Shown here piece by piece: positions 484 to 49,081 of a stretch of 64,000 nt of DNA. The stretch is from the sequence record MT129654.1. The stretch is one strand, 5' to 3'. The notes under the pieces were generated by a model. It was not told the DNA's origin. It searched no databases and was given only the letters and a program-made list of their open reading frames with translations. Made by a program: the position numbers and the translations under genes. How positions within the stretch are numbered: the stretch's first letter is position 1; each line of letters begins with the position of its first letter. Source of the stretch: Escherichia phage MN04.

Positions 484-513
484 GTTTACATCCAAGGACG
501 GATGGAGTATAAT
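484..513 (+). promoter_or_regulatory. early promoter (GTTTAC -35 / TATAAT -10), PeSL-like
   Basis: GTTTACA, 18-nt spacer, TATAAT, then CTATCAACTA and SD. Confidence 0.55.
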
Positions 514-6049: not shown

Positions 6050-6250
6050 ATGAATCCTGAATCTAAATTATCACAACGAATTGCTGAAGCCCGTCGTCAG
6101 TTCTTTGAAAATATGGTAGCTCAAGGTATTGATGACGAAGTTTTTCTAAACTGGTTTTGGAATAACAAATATTCAAAATGTGCAGGAGCAATATTAATAT
6201 CGGCCGCAATGATGTATGAAGGTTGGAAAGGCGCACTAGCACAAAAATAG
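6050..6250 (+). CDS. hypothetical protein (66 aa)
   Basis: ORF, gene packing. Confidence 0.4.
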   Translation: MNPESKLSQRIAEARRQFFENMVAQGIDDEVFLNWFWNNKYSKCAGAILISAAMMYEGWKGALAQK

Positions 6251-6279
6251 TTTACAAACTCTTGGGACCAGAGTATAAT
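6250..6279 (+). promoter_or_regulatory. early promoter, PeSL-like
   Basis: GTTTAC, 18 nt, TATAAT; the -10 sits in the loop of GGGACCA/TGGTCCC. Confidence 0.55.
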
Positions 6280-6319
6280 GGTCCCCACGGATTATAAATT
6301 TTAAACTGAGGAAATTATT

Positions 6320-8592: not shown

Positions 8593-8766
8593 ATGACGAA
8601 TTCGATGGATTTTGATAAGATTAAATCTGACAAAAATGAGATGATACTTAAATTTGAAGCTGCTCGTATTAAAGCGGAAAATGAAGGTATTATTACCTAT
8701 AAGCCTATCAAGTTCAGGTCTTCTCATGAACCTCTGTATGGTGTATTAATTGGTAAAGGAGCTTAG
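8593..8766 (+). CDS. hypothetical small protein (57 aa)
   Basis: ATG with GAGG upstream; ends at the terminator hairpin. Confidence 0.3.
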   Translation: MTNSMDFDKIKSDKNEMILKFEAARIKAENEGIITYKPIKFRSSHEPLYGVLIGKGA

Positions 8767-8778
8767 GCTCCTTTTTTG
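8757..8778 (+). terminator. intrinsic terminator
   Basis: GGAGCTTAGGCTCC hairpin followed by TTTTTT. Confidence 0.6.
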
Positions 8779-8800
8779 CTTTATATTCGGATGATAAAAT
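8777..8800 (+). promoter_or_regulatory. middle promoter candidate (MotA box + -10)
   Basis: TGCTTTA, 11-nt spacer, TAAAAT, upstream of the 47/46 unit. Confidence 0.45.
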
Positions 8801-11912: not shown

Positions 11913-12100
11913 GTGATTTTATAACAGGCCAGCATTTGTTGGCCGTTCCAGAAATAAAGAGATATGTTTTAGTTAACAACTTCTCTGGAGACGAACATCT
12001 TGTTACTGAAGATTATCTCCAAAATGCTTTTAAGTCAGAATATGTTACAATCATGTCAAATAGAAATCCATCATGGTTTGTCTATGAGTACTTTGATTAA
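11909..12100 (+). CDS. hypothetical protein (63 aa)
   Basis: ORF, overlapping start. Confidence 0.4.
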   Translation: MSDFITGQHLLAVPEIKRYVLVNNFSGDEHLVTEDYLQNAFKSEYVTIMSNRNPSWFVYEYFD

Positions 12101-12102
12101 AT

Positions 12103-12126
12103 TGCTTTAAAATATTGATTTATAAT
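12103..12126 (+). promoter_or_regulatory. middle promoter candidate (MotA box + -10)
   Basis: TGCTTTA, 11-nt spacer, TATAAT, upstream of the 12157 ORF and gene 45. Confidence 0.5.
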
Positions 12127-12156
12127 ACATTTACCAACTAAATGAGAGAAAATATT

Positions 12157-12576
12157 ATGTTTGCTACTTCTAATGGCGTTACCGTTAAAGATATCCAAGT
12201 TAAAACCATCCGTACTGATTCCAACCCACATAATCAGAACCGTATCCGTAAATCATGGGTACTGAATATTGATACCGACTCTGCACGCCGATTGCAGTCT
12301 CTTCCACAAGAAACCAAGTTTATGCTGTACAGTATCATCGATAATGATGTATCTGATAAGTGGATTGAAATCATGCGTAAACACTTTAAAGATTCTTTGG
12401 CTGCAGGTGCTAAACTTGTTATCGACCGCGACGGTTCTGAACGTTTAGAAGATGATTATTGCGTCGACCCTGATGAGCAGTTGCTTGAAGCCGGTTCTAT
12501 TATTGCTTCCAAGATTCCAGAGTATATTGAATCTCTGCCTGAATCAATCCGTAAACAAATGATCGTAATTGCTTAA
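12157..12576 (+). CDS. hypothetical protein; RpbA-like by position only
   Basis: ORF between 46 and 45 behind a MotA-box promoter; no sequence-level support for the RpbA name. Confidence 0.4.
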   Translation: MFATSNGVTVKDIQVKTIRTDSNPHNQNRIRKSWVLNIDTDSARRLQSLPQETKFMLYSIIDNDVSDKWIEIMRKHFKDSLAAGAKLVIDRDGSERLEDDYCVDPDEQLLEAGSIIASKIPEYIESLPESIRKQMIVIA

Positions 12577-12601
12577 TAATTTGACTTGATAAGGAAACAT
12601 T

Positions 12602-13300
12602 ATGAAATTCTCTAAAGAAACCCTGAACATTCTTAAAAACTTCTCTGGTATTAACCCAGGCATTATGCTTAAACCAGGTAACACCATTCTGACCCGATCT
12701 GTTACCGGTGCAAGTTATGGTGAAGCTACTGTAAGTGATACCTTCGATATCGAAGCAGCAATCTATGATTTGAATGGCTTCTTAAGTATTCTGTCTTTGG
12801 TATCGGAAAGTGCTGAAGTTTCGGTAAGTGAAGACCAAACCACGTTAATTATTAAAGACCAACGTTCAACAATTAAGTGGCCTATTGCTGACCCAAGCAC
12901 AATCGCATTCCCAAGTAAAGCTATTCCGTTCCCTGTGGCTGAAGTTATTTTCGACCTGAAAGCCGAAGATTATCAACAGTTGATGCGTGTGTCCTCTGGT
13001 CTGAGTATTGATACATTTGCAATCACTGTAGACGATGGTAAAATTGTTATCAACGGTTATAAACAAGTCGACGATAAAGAATTAACTCGTCCATTGTATT
13101 CTCTGGTCGTGGCTGACCATGATGGTCCTGACTTTAAGTTCATCATTAACAAAACTAATATGAAAATGATGCCAGCCGATTATCATGTGTTGTTATGGGC
13201 GCGCGGTGAAGGCCAGGATGCTCGATTTGCAGCTAAGTTTGAAGGTACACAAGCTTCTTACGTATTAGCTATGGAAGCAGGCTCAAGCCACTCGTTCTAA
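12602..13300 (+). CDS. 45: sliding clamp gp45
   Basis: MKFSKETLNILKNFSGINPGIMLK... matches recalled T4 gp45 (about 228 aa). Confidence 0.9.
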   Translation: MKFSKETLNILKNFSGINPGIMLKPGNTILTRSVTGASYGEATVSDTFDIEAAIYDLNGFLSILSLVSESAEVSVSEDQTTLIIKDQRSTIKWPIADPSTIAFPSKAIPFPVAEVIFDLKAEDYQQLMRVSSGLSIDTFAITVDDGKIVINGYKQVDDKELTRPLYSLVVADHDGPDFKFIINKTNMKMMPADYHVLLWARGEGQDARFAAKFEGTQASYVLAMEAGSSHSF

Positions 13301-13361
13301 AGCATAGGGAGGAATTTCCTCCCTTGGAGTATAATGTAAAAACAAACCTGAGGAAATTAAT

Positions 13362-14321
13362 ATGCTTACAGTAAATAATAATGAATTCATGTGGGAACAG
13401 AAATATCGTCCAGGTACTTTATCTGAATGTATTCTGCCTGCTCATGATAAAGAAACTCTCCAAGCCATTGTTAATAAGGGCCTAATCCCTAACATTATCC
13501 TAGTCTCTGCTTCACCAGGCACAGGTAAAACTACCGTGGCTAAAGCATTGTGTGCCGATACAAATTCAGACATGTTGTTTGTTAACGGTTCCGACTGTCG
13601 TATTGATTTCGTTCGTAACGAACTTACTCGTTTTGCATCTTCTAAATCTATCGAAGGTAAACGTAAGGTAATTGTTATTGACGAATTCGACCGTGCTGGT
13701 GTTGCTGAAGCTCAACGCCACCTTCGTTCATTCTTAGAGGCCTATTCCTCAAACTGTTCTGTAATTATTACAGCAAACAATATTGATGGTATCATTGGTC
13801 CACTTCAATCCCGTTGTCGTGTAATTAAATTTGGTGAAGCCACTCCAGCTGACCAAACAGCCATGATGAAAGAAATGATTCATCGTGCAGTAGCAATTTG
13901 TAAAAATGAAAATGTTGAAGTCGAAGACCTTAAAGTTATTGCGGCTTTAGTTAAACAAAACTTCCCTGACTTCCGTAAAACAGTTAACCAACTGGACCGT
14001 TATTCCTCAAGTGGTAAAATCGATACAGGCATTTTGAGTATTGTAATGAATACCAATTCGCCTATTGATGAAGTAGTGGCTGCACTGAAAGATAAAAACT
14101 TTAAAGAACTCCGTGCATTAGCTCCACGTCATGTCAATGATTATGCCAACTTTATTATGACATTGGCTAACGAACTCTATGGTAAATTGCCTGGGCCGAG
14201 CATTGTTAGAATGTATGAAATCGTCGGTGAAAATAACCAATACCATGGTATTGCTGCTAACCCAGAAATTCACCTGACTTATCTGTTTATCCAACTTGCT
14301 CTGGAGCTCCAATGGCTATAA
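13362..14321 (+). CDS. 44: clamp-loader ATPase subunit gp44
   Basis: 319 aa; Walker A SPGTGKTT, DEFD Walker B, SRC motif (PLQSRCRV). Confidence 0.9.
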   Translation: MLTVNNNEFMWEQKYRPGTLSECILPAHDKETLQAIVNKGLIPNIILVSASPGTGKTTVAKALCADTNSDMLFVNGSDCRIDFVRNELTRFASSKSIEGKRKVIVIDEFDRAGVAEAQRHLRSFLEAYSSNCSVIITANNIDGIIGPLQSRCRVIKFGEATPADQTAMMKEMIHRAVAICKNENVEVEDLKVIAALVKQNFPDFRKTVNQLDRYSSSGKIDTGILSIVMNTNSPIDEVVAALKDKNFKELRALAPRHVNDYANFIMTLANELYGKLPGPSIVRMYEIVGENNQYHGIAANPEIHLTYLFIQLALELQWL

Positions 14322-14884
14322 GTCTTTTTGATGATGACGTTGAACTGAATGAACATGAAGTTGCTTGGAAACAACGTAACGACGCTGCTATTCAAGCCTT
14401 GGCCGATTCATTTAAAGAAAAGGCTGAAAACGAATTGTTTGCCATTATGAACGATATCACATACGGTAAAAAACAACGTAACTTGGCTCAATCAGAAAAC
14501 TATAACCAATTTTGGCTAGATAATAGTTTGAGCCAACACGTAGATTGCATTATGCAAGCCGCGATGGTTAACTGTCTTAAACTTGACGACCAAAGTCACT
14601 TCAATTATCTTTTACATGCTGTTCCTAAGGGTAAGAGATTTGGTAAATGGGCTAAGGCCCATGATGATGAAGTTAGTGTAGTTTTTATTACTCGTTTATT
14701 GATGAAATACCATTCAATTAATAATGATGACGCTTATCGTTATCTCGAGACTTATAAAATTAAAGGCCATCTTCCGGCAATGCTTAAGAAGATGAAAGGG
14801 TTGGTTACGGACGAGTTCCTGAAATCCGTAACTAAAAATGTGAAAGAACAAAAAGACTTGAAAAAGAAAGCATTGGAATGGTAA
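14312..14884 (+). CDS. 62: clamp-loader subunit gp62
   Basis: 190 aa; ...GKRFGKWAK... and C-terminal LKGLVTDEFLKSVTKNVKEQKDLKKKALEW match recalled T4 gp62; overlaps the 44 stop. Confidence 0.85.
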   Translation: MAISLFDDDVELNEHEVAWKQRNDAAIQALADSFKEKAENELFAIMNDITYGKKQRNLAQSENYNQFWLDNSLSQHVDCIMQAAMVNCLKLDDQSHFNYLLHAVPKGKRFGKWAKAHDDEVSVVFITRLLMKYHSINNDDAYRYLETYKIKGHLPAMLKKMKGLVTDEFLKSVTKNVKEQKDLKKKALEW

Positions 14885-14890
14885 ATTAAA

Positions 14891-15253
14891 ATGATTGAAA
14901 TTACTCTGAAGCAACCTGAAGACTTCCTAAAAGTGAAAGAGACCCTGACTCGTATGGGTATCGCTAATAATAAAGAAAAGAAACTATATCAATCCTGTCA
15001 CATTTTGCAAAAGCAAGGACGGTATTATATTGTCCACTTTAAAGAGATGTTGCGTATGGACGGTCGCCAGGTAGATATCGATGGTGAAGACTACCAACGC
15101 CGCGATTCTATCGCCCAGCTTCTTAAGGATTGGGGACTTATTGATATTGTAGACGATTCTGAATTGTTCGAAATTACTAATAATTTCCGTGTCATTTCCT
15201 TTAAACAAAAAAATGACTGGGAACTATTGTCTAAGTATACCATTGGTAATTAA
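14891..15253 (+). CDS. regA: translational repressor RegA
   Basis: 120 aa; MIEITLKQPEDFLKVKETLTRMGIANNKEK... nearly matches recalled T4 RegA. Confidence 0.9.
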   Translation: MIEITLKQPEDFLKVKETLTRMGIANNKEKKLYQSCHILQKQGRYYIVHFKEMLRMDGRQVDIDGEDYQRRDSIAQLLKDWGLIDIVDDSELFEITNNFRVISFKQKNDWELLSKYTIGN

Positions 15254-15254
15254 T

Positions 15255-15455
15255 ATGATTCTTGAAATTGAAACGTGTGAACGTCTTAAAGAGGTGTACG
15301 GGCTTTCACCAACTCAAACTGTTTTTGACCTTTCCGAAGAGCTCCAAATAGAATTTCAAAAGGACCTCCATAAGTTACTACATCCAGGTCAGCAAGTCTT
15401 CCAGGCTATGATTAGAACTAAGGCGAAGATGGCAATCCGACTATTAAACGTTTGA
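15255..15455 (+). CDS. hypothetical small protein (66 aa)
   Basis: ATG immediately after the regA stop; followed by a terminator. Confidence 0.35.
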   Translation: MILEIETCERLKEVYGLSPTQTVFDLSEELQIEFQKDLHKLLHPGQQVFQAMIRTKAKMAIRLLNV

Positions 15456-15473
15456 CAATAGAAATTTAAGCAA

Positions 15474-15495
15474 AGGGACTTCGGTCCCTTTTTGG
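15474..15495 (+). terminator. intrinsic terminator upstream of gene 43
   Basis: AGGGACTTCGGTCCCT hairpin followed by TTTTT; then GGAGTATAAT. Confidence 0.6.
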
Positions 15496-15551
15496 AGTAT
15501 AATTATTCATCAACAAACAAAAGACAATCACTCGTCTATAAAGGAAATGAA

Positions 15552-18263
15552 ATGCAAGAATTCTATTTGACAGTCGAACAAATCGGTGATAATATTCTCG
15601 AACGTTACATCGATAAAAATGGTAAAGAACGTAGTCGTGAAGTTCCTTACAAGCCTACAATGTTTATGCATGCCAACCCAGAGCAAGCCGTAAAATATAT
15701 TGACATCTACGGTAAGGGCTGTGTTAAGAAAGAATTCGATTCAATGCGCGATGCTTCTCAGTGGATGAAGCGCATGGACGATATGGGTCTCGAAGCCCTT
15801 GGTATGGACGACTATAAATTAGCCTATTTGTCTGATACCTATCGTAAAGAAATCAAGTATGATTCTTCCAAGATTCGTATTGCTAACTTCGACATCGAGG
15901 TAACATCTCCTGATGGATTCCCTGAACCTGCTCAGGCTAAACATCCTATCGATGCCATTACTCACTACGACTCGATTGATGATAAATTCTATGTATTTGA
16001 CCTTTTAGTTTCACCTTATGGTACGGTCGAAGAGTGGTCGATTAAAATCGCTGAGAAACTCCAAGACGAAGGTGGTGACGAAGTTCCACAAGAAATCATT
16101 GACAAAATCGTTTATCTTCCGTTTAATTCTGAAGAAGAAATGATGCTTGAGTATCTGAATTTCTGGCAACAGAAAACTCCTGTGATTTTGACTGGATGGA
16201 ATGTTGAATCATTTGACGTGCCATACGTTTATAACCGTCTTAAAAATCTGTTTGGCGAGAACACTGCTAAGCGATTAAGCCCACATCGTAAGACTCGTGT
16301 TAAAGTTATCGAGAATATGTACGGTGTTCGTGAAATTATTACACTGTTCGGTATCTCTGTTCTGGATTATATCGACCTTTATAAAAAATTCAGCTTTACC
16401 AACCAGCCTTCTTATTCTCTGGATTATGTTTCTGAATATGAATTGAAAGTAGGTAAGTTGAAATATGATGGTCCTATCTCCAAGTTACGTGAGACGAACC
16501 ACCAACGATATATTTCCTATAACATTATCGACGTATATCGTGTTGTACAGATTGATATGAAACGCCAGTTCATTCTTCTGAGTTTGGACATGGGTTACTA
16601 TGCCAAGATGCAGATTCAGTCGGTGTTCAGTCCAATTAAGACTTGGGACGCTATTATCTTTAATAGCCTTAAAGAACAGGGTAAAGTTATTCCTCAGGCC
16701 AAATCGCATGCGGTTCAACCTTATCCGGGTGCTTTCGTTAAGGAACCGATTCCTAACGCGTACAAATATGTAATGAGTTTCGACCTTACATCTCTGTACC
16801 CGAGTATCATTCGACAAGTGAATATAAGCCCAGAGACCATCGCAGGGACATTCGCTAACGCACCGATACATGAATATATTGCCGGAACTGCTCCGCGTCC
16901 TAGCGACACCTACAGTTGCTCTCCTAACGGCATGATGTACTATAAAGACCGTGATGGTGTGATTCCTACAGAAATCACGAAGGTGTTCTTACAGCGTAAA
17001 GAACATAAAGGTTATATGCTTGCAGCTCAACGTAACGGTGAGTTAATTAAAGAAGCATTAGAAAATCCTAATCCGTCTGTTGATAGCCCACTGGATATCG
17101 ATTATCGTTTCGACTTCTCTGACGAAATCAAAGCCCAGATTAAAAAATTGTCAGCATCTTCTTTAAAAGAAATGTTATTCAAAGCCGAACGTACTGAAGT
17201 CGCAGGTATGACTGCTCAGATTAACCGTAAGTTGCTTATCAACTCCCTTTATGGTGCACTTGGTAACGTATGGTTCCGTTACTATGACCTCAGGAACGCA
17301 ACTGCAATCACATTGTTTGGTCAAATGGCCCTCCAATGGATTGAACGTAAGGTTAACGAATATCTGAATAGCGTGTGTAAGACTGAAAACCAGAAGTTCG
17401 TGCTTTATGGTGATACCGACTCCATTTATGTTAAGGCTGATGCAATTATCAATAAAGTAGGCGAAGATAAATTCCGTGATACTAACCACTGGGTTGACTT
17501 CTTAGATAAATTTGCACGTGAACGTATGGAACCAGCTATTGATGCAGGCTTCCGTGAGATGTGTGAATACATGAACAATAAACAGCACTTGATGTTCATG
17601 GACCGAGAAGCTATCGCTGGTCCTCCACTTGGTTCTAAAGGTCTTGGTGGATTCTGGACAGGCAAGAAACGTTATGCACTGAACGTTTGGGACATGGAAG
17701 GTACTCGTTATGCCGAACCACACTTGAAAATCATGGGTCTCGAAACCCAGAAATCAAGTACACCTAAAGCGGTTCAGAAAGCACTGAAAGAATGCATCCG
17801 TCGTATGCTTCAAGAAGGCGAGGCCTCTTTGCAAGAGTATTTCAAACAGTTTAATAAGGAATTTAACGAATTAGACTATGTAAGCATTGCTGCAGTATCC
17901 AGTGCTAACAACATTGAGAAATATAATGAAGGTGGTTTCCCTGGTTCTAAATGTCCGTACCACATCAAAGGTTGCTTAGCTTACATGCGTGCTTCTGCTG
18001 GTGATTTGACAATGCCTCGAATCGTTGATGGTGAAAAGGTATATGTACTGCCACTTAAAGAAGGCAACCCGTTCGGTGAAGCTTGTATGGCATGGCCGTC
18101 AGGTATTGAACTTCCGATTCAGATTCGTGACCAAGTCCTCCGTTGGATGGACTACAACGTACTGTTCCAAAAGACCTTTATCAAACCTCTGACCGGTTTT
18201 ACTGAGTCTGCTAAAATCGACTACGAGAAAAAAGCAACATTATTTGACATGTTCGACTTTTAA
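15552..18263 (+). CDS. 43: DNA polymerase gp43 (family B)
   Basis: 903 aa from ATG 15552 (MQEFYLTVEQIGD...); exo motifs FDIEV and YNIID, pol motifs DLTSLYPSII and YGDTDS; very close to recalled RB69 gp43. The track start 15492 is an in-frame upstream extension. Confidence 0.95.
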   Translation: MQEFYLTVEQIGDNILERYIDKNGKERSREVPYKPTMFMHANPEQAVKYIDIYGKGCVKKEFDSMRDASQWMKRMDDMGLEALGMDDYKLAYLSDTYRKEIKYDSSKIRIANFDIEVTSPDGFPEPAQAKHPIDAITHYDSIDDKFYVFDLLVSPYGTVEEWSIKIAEKLQDEGGDEVPQEIIDKIVYLPFNSEEEMMLEYLNFWQQKTPVILTGWNVESFDVPYVYNRLKNLFGENTAKRLSPHRKTRVKVIENMYGVREIITLFGISVLDYIDLYKKFSFTNQPSYSLDYVSEYELKVGKLKYDGPISKLRETNHQRYISYNIIDVYRVVQIDMKRQFILLSLDMGYYAKMQIQSVFSPIKTWDAIIFNSLKEQGKVIPQAKSHAVQPYPGAFVKEPIPNAYKYVMSFDLTSLYPSIIRQVNISPETIAGTFANAPIHEYIAGTAPRPSDTYSCSPNGMMYYKDRDGVIPTEITKVFLQRKEHKGYMLAAQRNGELIKEALENPNPSVDSPLDIDYRFDFSDEIKAQIKKLSASSLKEMLFKAERTEVAGMTAQINRKLLINSLYGALGNVWFRYYDLRNATAITLFGQMALQWIERKVNEYLNSVCKTENQKFVLYGDTDSIYVKADAIINKVGEDKFRDTNHWVDFLDKFARERMEPAIDAGFREMCEYMNNKQHLMFMDREAIAGPPLGSKGLGGFWTGKKRYALNVWDMEGTRYAEPHLKIMGLETQKSSTPKAVQKALKECIRRMLQEGEASLQEYFKQFNKEFNELDYVSIAAVSSANNIEKYNEGGFPGSKCPYHIKGCLAYMRASAGDLTMPRIVDGEKVYVLPLKEGNPFGEACMAWPSGIELPIQIRDQVLRWMDYNVLFQKTFIKPLTGFTESAKIDYEKKATLFDMFDF

Positions 18264-28942: not shown

Positions 28943-29971
28943 ATGTCATATGTCGATAGAGAATTTGCTGTACGTGCCTTGAATTACCAACCTAAATTCA
29001 GACAAGTAACTGGTAGTGATTTTAAATTAAATTGTCGTTGCCGTGTATGTGGTGACTCCCAAAAAGATGAAAACAAAGCTCGATTCTGGGCCTATCCGGC
29101 CAATGACGGCTCTGTAATGCTACACTGTTTTAACTGTGATTATTCGGCAGGAATTAAGAAGTACCTATACGAATATGAGCCTGATTTATATCGCGAATAT
29201 ATTCTTGAGAAACATAAAGAGCAATCGTTCGGGAGACAAGCTGCACCTAAGGTGGAGATATCTGAAAAAATTAAAGCTAAGATGCCTGTCATTGAAAAGC
29301 TTAATTTCTGTGAACGATTAGATAGAATGCCGAAAGACCATCCTATTATTAAGTATGTAACTCTGCGGTGCATTCCTGAAAATAAATGGAATCGGTTATG
29401 GTTTACTAAAGAATGGCCTGCATTGGTGAATTCTGTTAATCCAGGGACCTATTCCAAAGAAATGCCTGAACCACGTTTGGTTATTCCAATTTTCAATAAG
29501 AATAAGCAAATTGAAAGTTTTCAGGGCCGAGCCTTACGTAAAGATGCTCCACAAAAATATATTACAATAAAAGCTCATGACCAAGCTACAAAAATATATG
29601 GAATGGATACAGTTGACGAACGTCAATTGGTGTGGGTAATGGAAGGTCCTATTGATTCATTATTCGTACCTAATGCAATAGCAATTACTGGTGGGTCGTT
29701 GGACTTGGCTATGGTTCCGTGTAAAGAAACTCGTGCCTGGGTAATGGACAATGAACCCCGTCATCCTGACACAATTAAGCGTATGCAACGATTAGTTGAT
29801 GCCGGCGAAAGGGTCCTATTCTGGGACAAGGCTCCATGGCCTTCTAAAGATATAAATGATATGGTTATGAAAGATAAAGCTGATATAAATGATATATTGA
29901 CGTATATGAAAGCTAATATAGCCCAAGGGTTAATGGCAAAAATGAGGCTTTCAAAATATTCTAAAATTTAG
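28943..29971 (+). CDS. 61: DNA primase gp61
   Basis: 342 aa; zinc ribbon CRCRVCGDS...CFNC and VMEGPIDSLF Toprim; matches recalled T4 gp61. Confidence 0.9.
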   Translation: MSYVDREFAVRALNYQPKFRQVTGSDFKLNCRCRVCGDSQKDENKARFWAYPANDGSVMLHCFNCDYSAGIKKYLYEYEPDLYREYILEKHKEQSFGRQAAPKVEISEKIKAKMPVIEKLNFCERLDRMPKDHPIIKYVTLRCIPENKWNRLWFTKEWPALVNSVNPGTYSKEMPEPRLVIPIFNKNKQIESFQGRALRKDAPQKYITIKAHDQATKIYGMDTVDERQLVWVMEGPIDSLFVPNAIAITGGSLDLAMVPCKETRAWVMDNEPRHPDTIKRMQRLVDAGERVLFWDKAPWPSKDINDMVMKDKADINDILTYMKANIAQGLMAKMRLSKYSKI

Positions 29972-38785: not shown

Positions 38786-38814
38786 GTTTACTTTATCGAG
38801 AGCCATGTTATAAT
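38786..38814 (+). promoter_or_regulatory. early promoter, PeSL-like
   Basis: GTTTAC, 17 nt, TATAAT; -10 in the loop of GAGAGCCAT/ATGGCTCT. Confidence 0.55.
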
Positions 38815-38856
38815 GGCTCTTATGGATTATAATCCTTTAACCAAGAGAGAAAAATT

Positions 38857-48659: not shown

Positions 48660-49004
48660 ATGTCTAAAGTATTTTTTGGTAATTCTAAAGTTATGTTCTT
48701 TGAGCAACTCAGTCTTAAAGAGGCATTGGCAGCCTTCAATCAAGAACTGGTTACTGGGTTAGATTCAAAAACTATGGCAAGTGCGGATTTCGTTTTCGTT
48801 CAAGACCCGGATACAGGGTTTTATCGATTCATCAAATTCCGTATGAGCATGGACCCTGACTATCGTAGTGCTTACTATGTGAGTTACGAAAATGTTATCG
48901 AAGAATTACGTGATACCTATGGACGTGCTTTGAACCCACTGAATAAGGTTTATAATGCGTCCTTTTATACGAGCGGATTTATTTTAGAACAGCTACAAAA
49001 ATAG
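48660..49004 (+). CDS. hypothetical protein (114 aa)
   Basis: TTGAGGAAAATATT-ATG TIR. Confidence 0.45.
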   Translation: MSKVFFGNSKVMFFEQLSLKEALAAFNQELVTGLDSKTMASADFVFVQDPDTGFYRFIKFRMSMDPDYRSAYYVSYENVIEELRDTYGRALNPLNKVYNASFYTSGFILEQLQK

Positions 49005-49032
49005 TTTACAACCTCGAGAATCATGTTATAAT
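49004..49032 (+). promoter_or_regulatory. early promoter, PeSL-like
   Basis: GTTTAC, 17 nt, TATAAT; flanking near-palindrome GAGAATCAT/ATGGTTCTC. Confidence 0.55.
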
Positions 49033-49081
49033 GGTTCTCGTTGACTGGATAACAAAACATTAATCTACTGAGGAAATTGAT

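What the first reader, a model, noticed from the sequence alone, without database searches (positions are those of the whole stretch)
13306..15502. Hairpin followed by TTGGAGTATAAT upstream of genes 44 and 43
At 13306-13335 (GGGAGGAATTTCCTCCC then TTGGAGTATAAT) and at 15474-15502 (AGGGACTTCGGTCCCT TTTT then GGAGTATAAT), a stable hairpin is immediately followed by the same GGAGTATAAT element. Both lie in the leaders of genes whose T4 homologues are translationally regulated (RegA targets; gp43 autogenous operator). They may be conserved leader structures or promoters abutting terminators.
Basis: partly seen in the sequence, partly recalled or inferred. Interest (0 to 1): 0.35.

Follow-up and report, generated by a model that had tools for sequence, protein, structure and literature searches.

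The report
Terminator hairpins abutting T4-type promoters
The two hairpin-plus-GGAGTATAAT elements are ordinary T4-type transcription punctuation, a stem-loop ending the upstream genes followed by a sigma-70 -10 box; the one before the DNA polymerase gene matches phage T4's mapped middle promoter P43, and neither hairpin is a translational operator.

Summary
The window is a Dhakavirus (JS98/JS10-like T4-type coliphage). GGAGTATAAT occurs exactly three times, against 0.13 expected. All three copies are intergenic and on the coding strand, and two directly follow stable hairpins.

Site B lies upstream of gene 43. It is the ortholog of T4's own GGGGCTTCGGCCCC-TTATTT-GGAGTATAAT. The published start site of T4 middle promoter P43 (29933) lies 5 nt downstream of that TATAAT. 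Site B is therefore an intrinsic terminator (UUCG-loop stem plus T5) abutting the -10 box of P43.

The true gp43 translational operator is a different hairpin, downstream at 15522-15537. It has an invariant loop AAUnACUC and a covarying stem.

Site A lies upstream of gene 44. It is the stem-loop found after gene 45 in nearly every T4-like lineage sampled (all but Morganella MP1 and two loci with extra DNA there) and predicted as a terminator in RB69, RB43 and KP15. It is followed by a perfect but unsupported -10 box: no -35, no MotA box, no TGn. That box is degenerate in the nearest genera, and no T4 promoter is listed there. Whether site A is an active promoter is uncertain (about 0.3).

GGAGTATAAT or GAGTATAAT is a recurrent -10 context in T4 promoters (P39, P43, P45.2 and an early promoter). 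A secondary role of the GGAG as a RegB cleavage site is not excluded. Verdict: already known and ordinary.

The parts
13306..13324 (+). Site A hairpin, 6 nt after the gene 45 stop codon (13298-13300): AGGGAGGA-AUU-UCCUCCCU. Only two U follow it, so it is an attenuator or 3'-end-stabilising stem-loop rather than a strong terminator.
   Evidence: Sequence. Fold of -12.5 to -14.1 kcal/mol, z = -3.26. A hairpin sits at the same place in nearly all T4-like lineages sampled, with different stems: 88% of cells paired and all 8 pairs with double-sided changes. It is predicted as the terminator '44<--45' in RB69 and RB43 and annotated as a terminator in KP15.
13326..13335 (+). Site A GGAG (13326-13329) plus a perfect sigma-70 -10 hexamer TATAAT (13330-13335). 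This is a candidate promoter for genes 44-62-regA with a predicted start near 13341-13342. Function is unverified.
   Evidence: There is no -35 (GGGAGG sits at that position), no TGn and no TGCTT MotA box. T4 has TATAAT at the same distance from the gene 44 ATG (27 vs 26 nt). The nearest genera have TATTAA, TACAAA or TATTGA, and other genera have nothing. No T4 promoter is listed here.
13350..13364 (+). Gene 44 ribosome-binding region GAGGAAAUUAAUAUG (SD at 13350-13354, AUG at 13362-13364). This is the part of the leader that corresponds to the T4 gene 44 RegA target.
   Evidence: Near-identity with T4 AAUGAGGAAAUUAUG and conservation across genera. RegA sites are unstructured and overlap the RBS (PMC3014915).
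15472..15493 (+). Site B intrinsic terminator: AAAGGGAC-UUCG-GUCCCUUU stem-loop with a U run to 15493. It ends the 45-44-62-regA(-small ORF) transcription unit.
   Evidence: Fold of -10.0 to -11.5 kcal/mol. A U-tract follows it in most lineages. Stems covary: 95% of cells paired and 7 of 8 pairs with double-sided changes. Terminators are annotated at this position in the Morganella MP1 and KP15 records. The consensus scan called it only on the minus strand, because the A/T tracts are counted as stem.
15475..15484 (+). GGGACTTCGG in the terminator loop: a degenerate MotA-box-like core (ACTT). It lies 16 nt upstream of the -10 hexamer; canonical T4 promoters have 13-15 nt and T4 P43 has 17 nt.
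   Evidence: Relative to the published T4 P43 start (29933), the GCTT of the T4 loop sits at -31..-28, the canonical MotA-box core position. An ACTT core is known from T4 P46. RB69-like, Moon-like, Roth20 and S16-like phages instead carry a separate TGCTAT or TACTTTA box between the hairpin and the -10.
15494..15503 (+). Site B GGAG (15494-15497) plus the -10 hexamer TATAAT (15498-15503). This is the ortholog of the -10 region of T4 middle promoter P43, with a predicted start near 15508-15510.
   Evidence: T4 carries the identical GGAGTATAAT, and the P43 start at 29933 is 5 nt after the hexamer. TATAAT is conserved across Tequatro-, Mosig-, Dhaka-, Karam-like and Roth20 lineages.
15522..15537 (+). 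The true gp43 translational operator hairpin: AGAC-AAUCACUC-GUCU. It lies inside the P43 5'-UTR, upstream of the SD (AAGGA, 15541-15545) and the AUG (15552-15554).
   Evidence: Orthologous to the T4 operator AGCCU-AAUAACUC-GGGCU (PMC3014915). The loop AAUnACUC is invariant in 11 lineages. The stem is 93% paired, with 4 of 5 pairs showing double-sided changes.
484..513 (+). Third exact GGAGTATAAT: a classical T4-type early promoter, GTTTAC-17 nt-TATAAT.
   Evidence: 6 such promoters in the window against 0.11 expected.
8755..8800 (+). Another terminator-plus-middle-promoter junction in the same window: AAAGGAGCTTAGGCTCCTTTTT, then TTTGCTTTA, 12 nt, TAAAAT. It is the ortholog of the T4 P47 arrangement.

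Best explanation
Both elements are transcription punctuation of the T4 type: a stable stem-loop that ends or attenuates the upstream unit, directly followed by the -10 region of a sigma-70 promoter for the next gene.

Site B (shown by orthology):
- Transcripts of the 45-44-62-regA(-small ORF) unit end at an intrinsic terminator (15472-15493).
- RNA polymerase with AsiA-remodelled sigma-70 and MotA then initiates at the P43 ortholog. Its -10 is TATAAT at 15498-15503, and its degenerate MotA-box core lies in the terminator loop.
- The start is near 15508-15510, giving a leader of about 43 nt.
- That leader carries the real gp43 operator hairpin (15522-15537) and the SD, where gp43 represses its own translation.

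Site A (partly inferred):
- The conserved stem-loop after gene 45 has a poor U-tract. It probably attenuates read-through and/or protects the 3' end of gene 45 mRNA.
- The TATAAT behind it may add a weak, -10-only or MotA-assisted start for 44-62-regA. This step is unproven.

The shared GGAGTATAAT is not a special element. It is a recurrent -16..-7 context of T4-type early and middle promoters.
For: - The window is 99% identical to JS10, and JS10 encodes MotA and AsiA.
- T4 has the same hairpin-GGAGTATAAT upstream of gene 43.
- Hinton 2010 Table 1 gives the P43 start at 29933, which is 5 nt after that TATAAT.
- The hairpin-plus-TATAAT arrangement recurs upstream of gene 43 in most of the T4-like lineages sampled. 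Stems covary and the MotA-box placement varies.
- KP15 has an overlapping terminator and 'putative middle promoter' annotated at the corresponding place just after regA, there upstream of a small ORF.
- In T4, GGAGTATAAT is also the -10 region of P39. GAGTATAAT occurs at P45.2, P43, P39 and an early promoter, and nowhere else in the first 50 kb.
- Terminator-then-middle-promoter junctions also occur at T4 P39, P47 and PmobB and at window 8755-8800.
- MotA-type motifs (19 vs 5.2 expected) and GTTTAC early promoters (6 vs 0.11) are enriched in the window.
- The operator hairpin downstream is conserved with covariation.
- The 45/44 hairpin is conserved with covariation and predicted as a terminator by others.
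Against: - No transcript-end data exist for any Dhakavirus, so the function of site B rests on orthology to T4.
- The MotA-like core at site B is ACTT and sits one nucleotide further from the -10 than the canonical range (16 vs 13-15 nt).
- The published T4 P43 start is only 4 nt beyond the hexamer, against 6 nt at 24 of the 30 T4 middle promoters examined. The geometry of P43 is therefore atypical.
- Site A lacks a U-tract, so it may not terminate at all.
- Site A also lacks a -35, a TGn and a MotA box. Its TATAAT is not conserved in the nearest genera.
- T4, which has TATAAT at the same place, has no promoter listed there.
- The hairpin windows used for the covariation counts were anchored on predicted hairpins, which biases those counts upward.
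Confidence: 0.82

Rival explanations
1. One reading: the hairpins are RNA operators in the 5' leaders of genes 44 and 43 that bind RegA or gp43 and control translation.
For: Both genes are translationally regulated in T4 (PMC3014915). The hairpins are present in read-through transcripts coming from upstream promoters.
Against: - The hairpins lie upstream of the -10 box and of the mapped T4 P43 start.
- The known gp43 operator, with loop AAUAACUC, is a different hairpin. Its ortholog sits at 15522-15537 with an invariant loop.
- RegA targets are unstructured RBS sequences.
- The stems of the reported hairpins change freely in sequence between lineages. That fits a terminator, not a sequence-specific protein site.
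Confidence: 0.03
2. RNA-level reading, not exclusive of the best explanation. In read-through transcripts, GGAGUAUAAU is a RegB/S1 endonuclease site. Cleavage between G and A would separate the upstream mRNA, left with a protective 3' hairpin, from the gene 44 or gene 43 message.
For: - RegB cuts intergenic GGAG followed by an A-rich stretch; the consensus is GGAGRAYARAA.
- GGAGUAUAAU(A) in T4 matches positions 6-9 and 11.
- The GGAG is single-stranded in the predicted folds.
- RegB is reported to stimulate gp43 synthesis.
- GGAG is kept at the gene 43 site in at least five lineages, even where the hairpin has moved away (Roth20, RB69-like).
- TGGAGUA is kept at the gene 44 site in the genera nearest to Dhakavirus, even though the -10 match decays there.
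Against: - Position 10 is U, which is rare in cleaved sites.
- In this window position 11 is U (site B) or G (site A), although A at position 11 is among the most conserved features of cleaved sites.
- GGAG is replaced by GTAG or GAA in some lineages at site B.
- T4 has no GGAG at the 45/44 site.
- GAG before TATAAT is equally common at promoters whose own transcripts do not contain it.
- Most middle transcripts are RegB-resistant.
- I could not see the list of cleaved T4 sites (Figure 3A of PMC1702504).
Confidence: 0.2
3. PeSL-type reading, not exclusive of the best explanation. The hairpin-promoter blocks are mobile regulatory cassettes whose main significance is as recombination junctions for shuffling small ORFs.
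For: - Arbiol et al. 2010 mention PeSL-like sequences in the plastic g43 locus of JS98.
- A small ORF family is present or absent immediately upstream of the terminator/P43 block within four genera. The junction lies at the start of the block.
- Extra DNA sits between genes 45 and 44 in L009 and L011.
- Sites A and B share the 13-nt stretch TTGGAGTATAATG in several Dhakaviruses (12 nt, TTGGAGTATAAT, in this window).
Against: - PeSLs are defined with a strong sigma-70 -35/-10 early promoter. Neither site has a -35.
- Site B is positionally conserved with T4 P43 rather than mobile.
- No recombination product was observed here.
Confidence: 0.15

Closest known systems
Phage T4 regA-43 intercistronic terminator plus MotA-dependent middle promoter P43 (Guild et al. 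1988; Hsu & Karam 1990; listed in Hinton 2010, PMC2988021, Table 1)
   Same: The position is the same: after regA (or the small ORF) and before gene 43. Both have a UUCG-loop GC hairpin, a T-run and then the identical GGAGTATAAT. Both have the operator hairpin and SD downstream in the same order and at similar spacing.
   Different: The stem sequence is GGGAC/GUCCC instead of GGGGC/GCCCC, so the loop core is ACTT rather than GCTT. The loop core lies 16 nt from the -10 rather than 17 nt. An extra small ORF precedes the block. There are no experimental data for this phage.
T4 terminator-to-middle-promoter junctions at P39, P47 and PmobB
   Same: A UUCG-loop terminator is directly followed by a middle promoter. 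P39 even carries GGAGTATAAT.
   Different: Those promoters have a separate canonical MotA box ((T/A)GCTTTA) between the hairpin and the -10. Sites A and B have the hairpin itself in the -30 region.
Gene 45-distal stem-loop of T4-like phages (TransTerm '44<--45' in RB69 and RB43, Nolan et al. 2006; 'putative terminator' in the KP15 record)
   Same: Site A's hairpin sits at the same place, just after the gene 45 stop codon, with comparable stability.
   Different: The Dhakavirus stem is GGGAGGA/UCCUCCC with a 3-nt loop instead of a UUCG tetraloop. It is followed by UUGGAG rather than a U-tract, and then by a perfect TATAAT.
PeSL (promoter-early stem-loop) cassettes of RB49/phi1 (Arbiol et al. 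2010, PMC2839356)
   Same: An intergenic composite of a stem-loop terminator and a sigma-70-type promoter. One PeSL subclass has the stem-loop over the -35 region. The authors mention JS98's g43 locus.
   Different: There is no -35 hexamer. Site B is a middle promoter, not an early one. The blocks are not a dispersed high-copy repeat family in this window.
gp43 translational operator (Tuerk & Gold 1990; Petrov & Karam 2002)
   Same: It lies in the same leader region of gene 43.
   Different: It is a different hairpin (15522-15537, loop AAUCACUC), downstream of the promoter. The reported hairpin has neither the loop sequence nor the position.

Membership tests
Intrinsic (Rho-independent) terminator | GC-rich stem-loop just downstream of a stop codon | tested here: met
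   Site A: 8 bp, -12.5 to -14.1 kcal/mol, 6 nt after the gene 45 stop. Site B: 8 bp with a UUCG loop, -10 to -11.5 kcal/mol.
Intrinsic (Rho-independent) terminator | U-tract immediately 3' of the stem | tested here: inconclusive
   Site B meets it: UUUUU at 15489-15493, with U-rich tails in most lineages. Site A does not: UUGGAGUA, with only 2 U. Most orthologs of site A also lack a run.
Intrinsic (Rho-independent) terminator | Structure conserved through compensatory changes | tested here: met
   Site A: 88% of cells paired and 8 of 8 pairs with double-sided changes. Site B: 95% paired and 7 of 8 pairs. In both cases 0 of 500 shuffles reached the observed values. The windows were anchored on predicted hairpins, so the counts lean towards the structure.
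Intrinsic (Rho-independent) terminator | RNA 3' ends at the U-tract in vivo | not testable with these tools
   No Term-seq or S1 mapping data exist for Dhakaviruses.
T4 MotA/AsiA-dependent middle promoter | Excellent sigma-70 -10 element (TAtaaT) | tested here: met
   TATAAT at 13330-13335 and 15498-15503.
T4 MotA/AsiA-dependent middle promoter | MotA box (a/t)(a/t)(a/t)TGCTTtA 12 +/- 1 bp upstream of the -10 | tested here: inconclusive
   Site B has GGGACTTCGG, with the ACTT core 16 nt before the -10 (canonical range 13-15 nt). The experimentally MotA-dependent T4 P43 has its GCTT at 17 nt. Site A has no CTT core; it has AATT at the equivalent position.
T4 MotA/AsiA-dependent middle promoter | Orthology to an experimentally mapped middle promoter | tested here: met
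   Site B corresponds to T4 P43, with its start at 29933. Site A has no listed T4 counterpart.
T4 MotA/AsiA-dependent middle promoter | The phage encodes MotA and AsiA | tested here: met
   JS10, 99% identical over the locus, has motA and asiA annotated. MotA-type motifs are enriched in the window, 19 against 5.2 expected.
T4-type early promoter | -35 GTTTAC(A/T) 17 +/- 1 bp upstream of TATAAT | tested here: not met
   GGGAGG (site A) and GGGACT (site B) occupy the -35 position. The third GGAGTATAAT at 504-513 does meet this feature.
gp43 translational operator | Hairpin with an 8-nt loop AAUAACUC-like, followed by the SD, within the gene 43 mRNA leader | tested here: not met
   The reported hairpin has a UUCG loop and lies upstream of the -10. 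The feature is met by 15522-15537 instead.
PeSL cassette | Strong sigma-70 promoter with both -35 and -10 boxes, combined with a stem-loop | tested here: not met
   The -10 and the stem-loop are present, but there is no -35.
RegB/S1 cleavage site | Single-stranded GGAG followed by RAYARAA | tested here: inconclusive
   GGAG-UAUAAUG (site A) and GGAG-UAUAAUU (site B) match at positions 6-9 only. The GGAG is unpaired in the predicted folds.
RegB/S1 cleavage site | RegB-dependent cut in vivo | not testable with these tools
   This needs primer extension on RNA from wild-type versus regB-mutant infection.

The most novel reading that the evidence does not exclude
GGAGUAUAAU is read twice. As DNA it is the -10 region of a promoter. 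As RNA, in read-through transcripts, it is a RegB/S1 cleavage site placed right behind a protective hairpin. Early polycistronic RNA would then be cut into a stabilised upstream message and a separately regulated gene 43 (and, in Dhakaviruses, gene 44) message. This would give a mechanism for the reported stimulation of gp43 synthesis by RegB.
Probability: 0.15. Interest if true: 0.35.

Novelty: already known. Interest (0 to 1): 0.12.

Why it matters
It matters little beyond annotation. The analysis places the terminator, the P43-type promoter and the true gp43 operator correctly in a Dhakavirus. That helps anyone engineering JS98-like therapeutic phages or reading their transcriptomes.

Two minor points may interest T4 specialists:
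- In the compact form of P43, the UUCG loop of the terminator occupies the MotA-box position.
- It is still open whether the perfect -10 box behind the gene 45 hairpin is a functional promoter in Dhakaviruses.

Tried and rejected
- The Rfam scan of 12000-16500 at E <= 1 found nothing.
- The T4 records in the phage collection carry no promoter or terminator features. The P43 position was therefore taken from Hinton 2010, Table 1.
- Four papers are not held in the library: Hsu & Karam 1990, Yeh et al. 1998 (PMC107123), Petrov & Karam 2002 (PMC137073) and Miller et al. 2003 (PMC150520). I could not read the original mapping of termination and processing sites.
- I could not see Figure 3A of Durand et al. 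2006, which lists the RegB-cleaved T4 sites. No genome-wide start-site map of T4 was found.
- A collection scan with TGGAGTANNNRGT...TGAGGAAA was badly designed. It excludes the Dhakavirus variant and mostly returned unrelated contigs, so it was not used.
- The first MAFFT alignment of site B hairpins (A1) misplaced two sequences. It was replaced by A3.
- Late promoter: rejected, because there is no TATAAATA near either site.
- Early promoter: rejected, because there is no GTTTAC at -35.
- A mini-ORF starting at the A/TTG before GAG: rejected, because it has no SD and is not conserved.
- An anti-SD role for the UCCUCCC arm of hairpin A: rejected, because the arm sequence is not conserved in other lineages.
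Full report
**What the window is.** A 4-kb stretch around the finding is 99% identical to Escherichia phage JS10 and 98% identical to JS98 (Dhakavirus, Straboviridae). Gene order on the + strand is the T4 replication cluster:
- gp47, gp46, 45.2 and rpbA (12142-12576)
- gp45 (12602-13300)
- gp44 (13362-14321)
- gp62 (14312-14884)
- regA (14891-15253)
- a small ORF (15255-15455)
- gp43 (15552-18263)

**Observation.** Both elements are present as described.
- Site A: hairpin AGGGAGGA-ATT-TCCTCCCT at 13306-13324, GGAG at 13326-13329, TATAAT at 13330-13335.
- Site B: hairpin AAAGGGAC-TTCG-GTCCCTTT at 15472-15491, T run to 15493, GGAG at 15494-15497, TATAAT at 15498-15503.
- The exact 10-mer occurs three times against 0.13 expected; none of 100 shuffles reached three. 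All three copies are on the + strand and intergenic.
- The hairpins fold at -14.1 kcal/mol (z = -3.3) and -11.5 kcal/mol (z = -2.6).
- The third copy (504-513) is a textbook T4-type early promoter, GTTTAC-17 nt-TATAAT.

**Site B is T4's terminator plus P43.**
- T4 itself reads TAAGCAAGGGGCTTCGGCCCCTTATTTGGAGTATAATATATCAAGAGCCTAATAACTCGGGCTATAAACTAAGGAATATCTATG upstream of gene 43.
- Hinton's compilation of experimentally identified T4 middle promoters places the P43 start at 29933 (refs Guild 1988; Hsu & Karam 1990). That base is the C five nucleotides after the TATAAT.
- Relative to that start, the GCTT of the terminator's UUCG loop lies at -31..-28. This is the position Hinton gives for the MotA-box core.
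- The hairpin-GGAGTATAAT block is therefore a terminator whose loop region overlaps the upstream part of a MotA-dependent promoter.
In T4 it is AGCCU-AAUAACUC-GGGCU. In the window it is AGAC-AAUCACUC-GUCU at 15522-15537, followed by the SD and AUG.
- Across 11 lineages the operator loop AAUnACUC is invariant and the stem covaries: 93% of cells paired and 4 of 5 pairs with changes on both sides.

**Comparative picture for site B.** I compared 32 IMG/VR loci and 7 GenBank phages.
- A stem-loop with a U-rich tail follows regA (or an inserted small ORF) in most lineages. The stems differ: GGGAC/GTCCC, GGGGC/GCCCC, GGAGCC/GGCTCC, GGGCC/GGCCC, GGCC/GGCC and others. On 10 distinct sequences, 95% of cells are paired and 7 of 8 pairs show double-sided changes. 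The windows were anchored on predicted hairpins, which biases the counts upward.
- TATAAT is kept in Tequatro-, Mosig-, Dhaka- and Karam-like phages and in Klebsiella phage Roth20.
- RB69-like, Moon-like, S16-like and Roth20 phages place a separate TGCTAT or TACTTTA MotA box between the hairpin and the -10. T4, the Dhakaviruses and several others have the compact form.
- More distant phages use other promoter types behind the terminator: TGTTATAAT in Acinetobacter phage Apostate and a full -35/-10 PeSL in RB49-like Brandy. KP15 has TGTTATATT behind its regA-distal terminator and TGTTACAAT just upstream of gene 43. Aeromonas 44RR has no promoter there.
- Other annotators marked a terminator in Morganella MP1, and an overlapping terminator plus 'putative middle promoter' just after regA in KP15.
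- JS10 encodes MotA and AsiA.
- The window is enriched for MotA-type motifs, 19 against 5.2 expected.

**GGAGTATAAT is a common promoter context, not a special element.**
- In the first 50 kb of T4, GAGTATAAT occurs four times, all at promoters on the transcribed strand: P39 (GGAGTATAAT), P43 (GGAGTATAAT), P45.2 (AGAGTATAAT) and an early promoter.
- In the window, three of the six GTTTAC early promoters have GAG before TATAAT; the other three have TGT.
- Terminator-then-middle-promoter junctions are also seen at T4 P39, P47 and PmobB and at window 8755-8800.

**Site A.**
- The stem-loop just after gene 45 is present in almost all lineages examined, again with unrelated stems. On 14 sequences, 88% of cells are paired and all 8 pairs show double-sided changes.
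- TransTerm predicted it as '44<--45' in RB69 and RB43, and the KP15 record calls it a terminator.
- In most lineages, including this window, no U-tract follows. It is more likely an attenuator or a 3'-end-protecting structure than an efficient terminator.
- The TATAAT behind it is exact only in Dhakaviruses and in T4-like phages, which read GGCC(C)TTTATAAT at the same distance from the ATG (26-27 nt).
- In the genera closest to Dhakavirus it reads TATTAA, TACAAA or TATTGA, all lacking the critical T at -7. RB69-like, Moon-like and other phages have nothing -10-like.
- There is no -35, no TGn and no TGCTT box.
- T4's lists show no middle promoter at 45/44. Pe35.3 is the only early promoter named for the 35.7-27.2 kb stretch.
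- I therefore rate an active gene 44 promoter in this phage at about 0.3.
- The RegA-type target on gene 44 is the unstructured RBS GAGGAAAUUAAUAUG (13350-13364), which is nearly identical to T4's, and not the hairpin.

**RegB.**
- RegB cuts intergenic GGAG followed by RAYARAA, and it is reported to stimulate gp43 synthesis.
- GGAGUAUAAU matches that consensus partly: positions 6-9 here, plus position 11 in T4.
- GGAG is conserved at site B in several genera even where the hairpin has moved. TGGAGUA persists at site A where the -10 decays.
- Against this, GGAG is replaced by GTAG or GAA in some lineages and is absent from T4's site A. It is equally typical of promoters whose own transcripts do not contain it.
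- I could not access the list of cleaved T4 sites. This remains a non-exclusive possibility at about 0.15-0.2.

**Verdict.** Site B is an ortholog of a promoter and terminator described in T4 decades ago. Site A is the well-known gene 45-distal stem-loop followed by an unverified -10 box. Novelty: already known. Interest: low.

Noticed in passing
window 15255-15470: The small ORF between regA and the terminator/P43 block is a homolog of JS10 EpJS10_0047 (71 aa). The window copy lacks one A in an A-run (about 15424), which shifts the last 15 codons, so the ORF ends at 15455 instead of the conserved ...TIEI* at 15468. This is either a real frameshift or a homopolymer sequencing error.
   Followed up: partly
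loci L004-L035, region between regA and gene 43: The same small-ORF family is present or absent immediately upstream of the terminator/P43 block within several genera. It is present in most Dhakaviruses, L011, T4-like L020 and L025, and Moon-like L028-30. It is absent in T4, Dhakavirus L007, L015, L031 and the RB69-likes. This fits the 'plastic g43 locus' remark of Arbiol et al. 2010.
   Followed up: partly
window 6250-6290, 38786-38825, 49004-49045: Three early promoters have their -10 box in the loop of a hairpin, which is PeSL-like. An example is GTTTACAAACTCTTGGGACCAGAGTATAATGGTCCCC, and almost the same promoter occurs in T4 at about 7.19 kb. The other two are GAGAGCCATGTTATAATGGCTCTT and GAGAATCATGTTATAATGGTTCTC.
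   Followed up: no
window 8755-8800: Terminator AAAGGAGCTTAGGCTCCTTTTT runs directly into a canonical MotA box (TTTGCTTTA), then 12 nt, then TAAAAT. This is the ortholog of the T4 P47 arrangement.
   Followed up: partly
L009 and L011, upstream of gene 44: These two relatives carry extra, coding-looking DNA between genes 45 and 44 instead of the short hairpin spacer. It is probably an inserted gene, perhaps a homing endonuclease.
   Followed up: no
window 12560-12602: Upstream of gene 45 there is a good MotA box (AATTGCTTAA) but only a poor -10 (GATAAG or TAAGGA) and no TATAAATA late promoter. T4 has a P45 middle promoter at the corresponding place. The canonical middle promoter in this stretch is at 12098-12126, upstream of rpbA.
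   Followed up: no
T4 P43 (AF158101 29933-29965): The published P43 start is only 4 nt beyond the TATAAT, whereas 24 of the 30 T4 middle promoters examined have 6 nt. Measured from that start, the GCTT in the terminator loop is at the canonical MotA-box position. The geometry of P43 is therefore set as if by the MotA box, with the -10 two bases too far downstream.
   Followed up: partly
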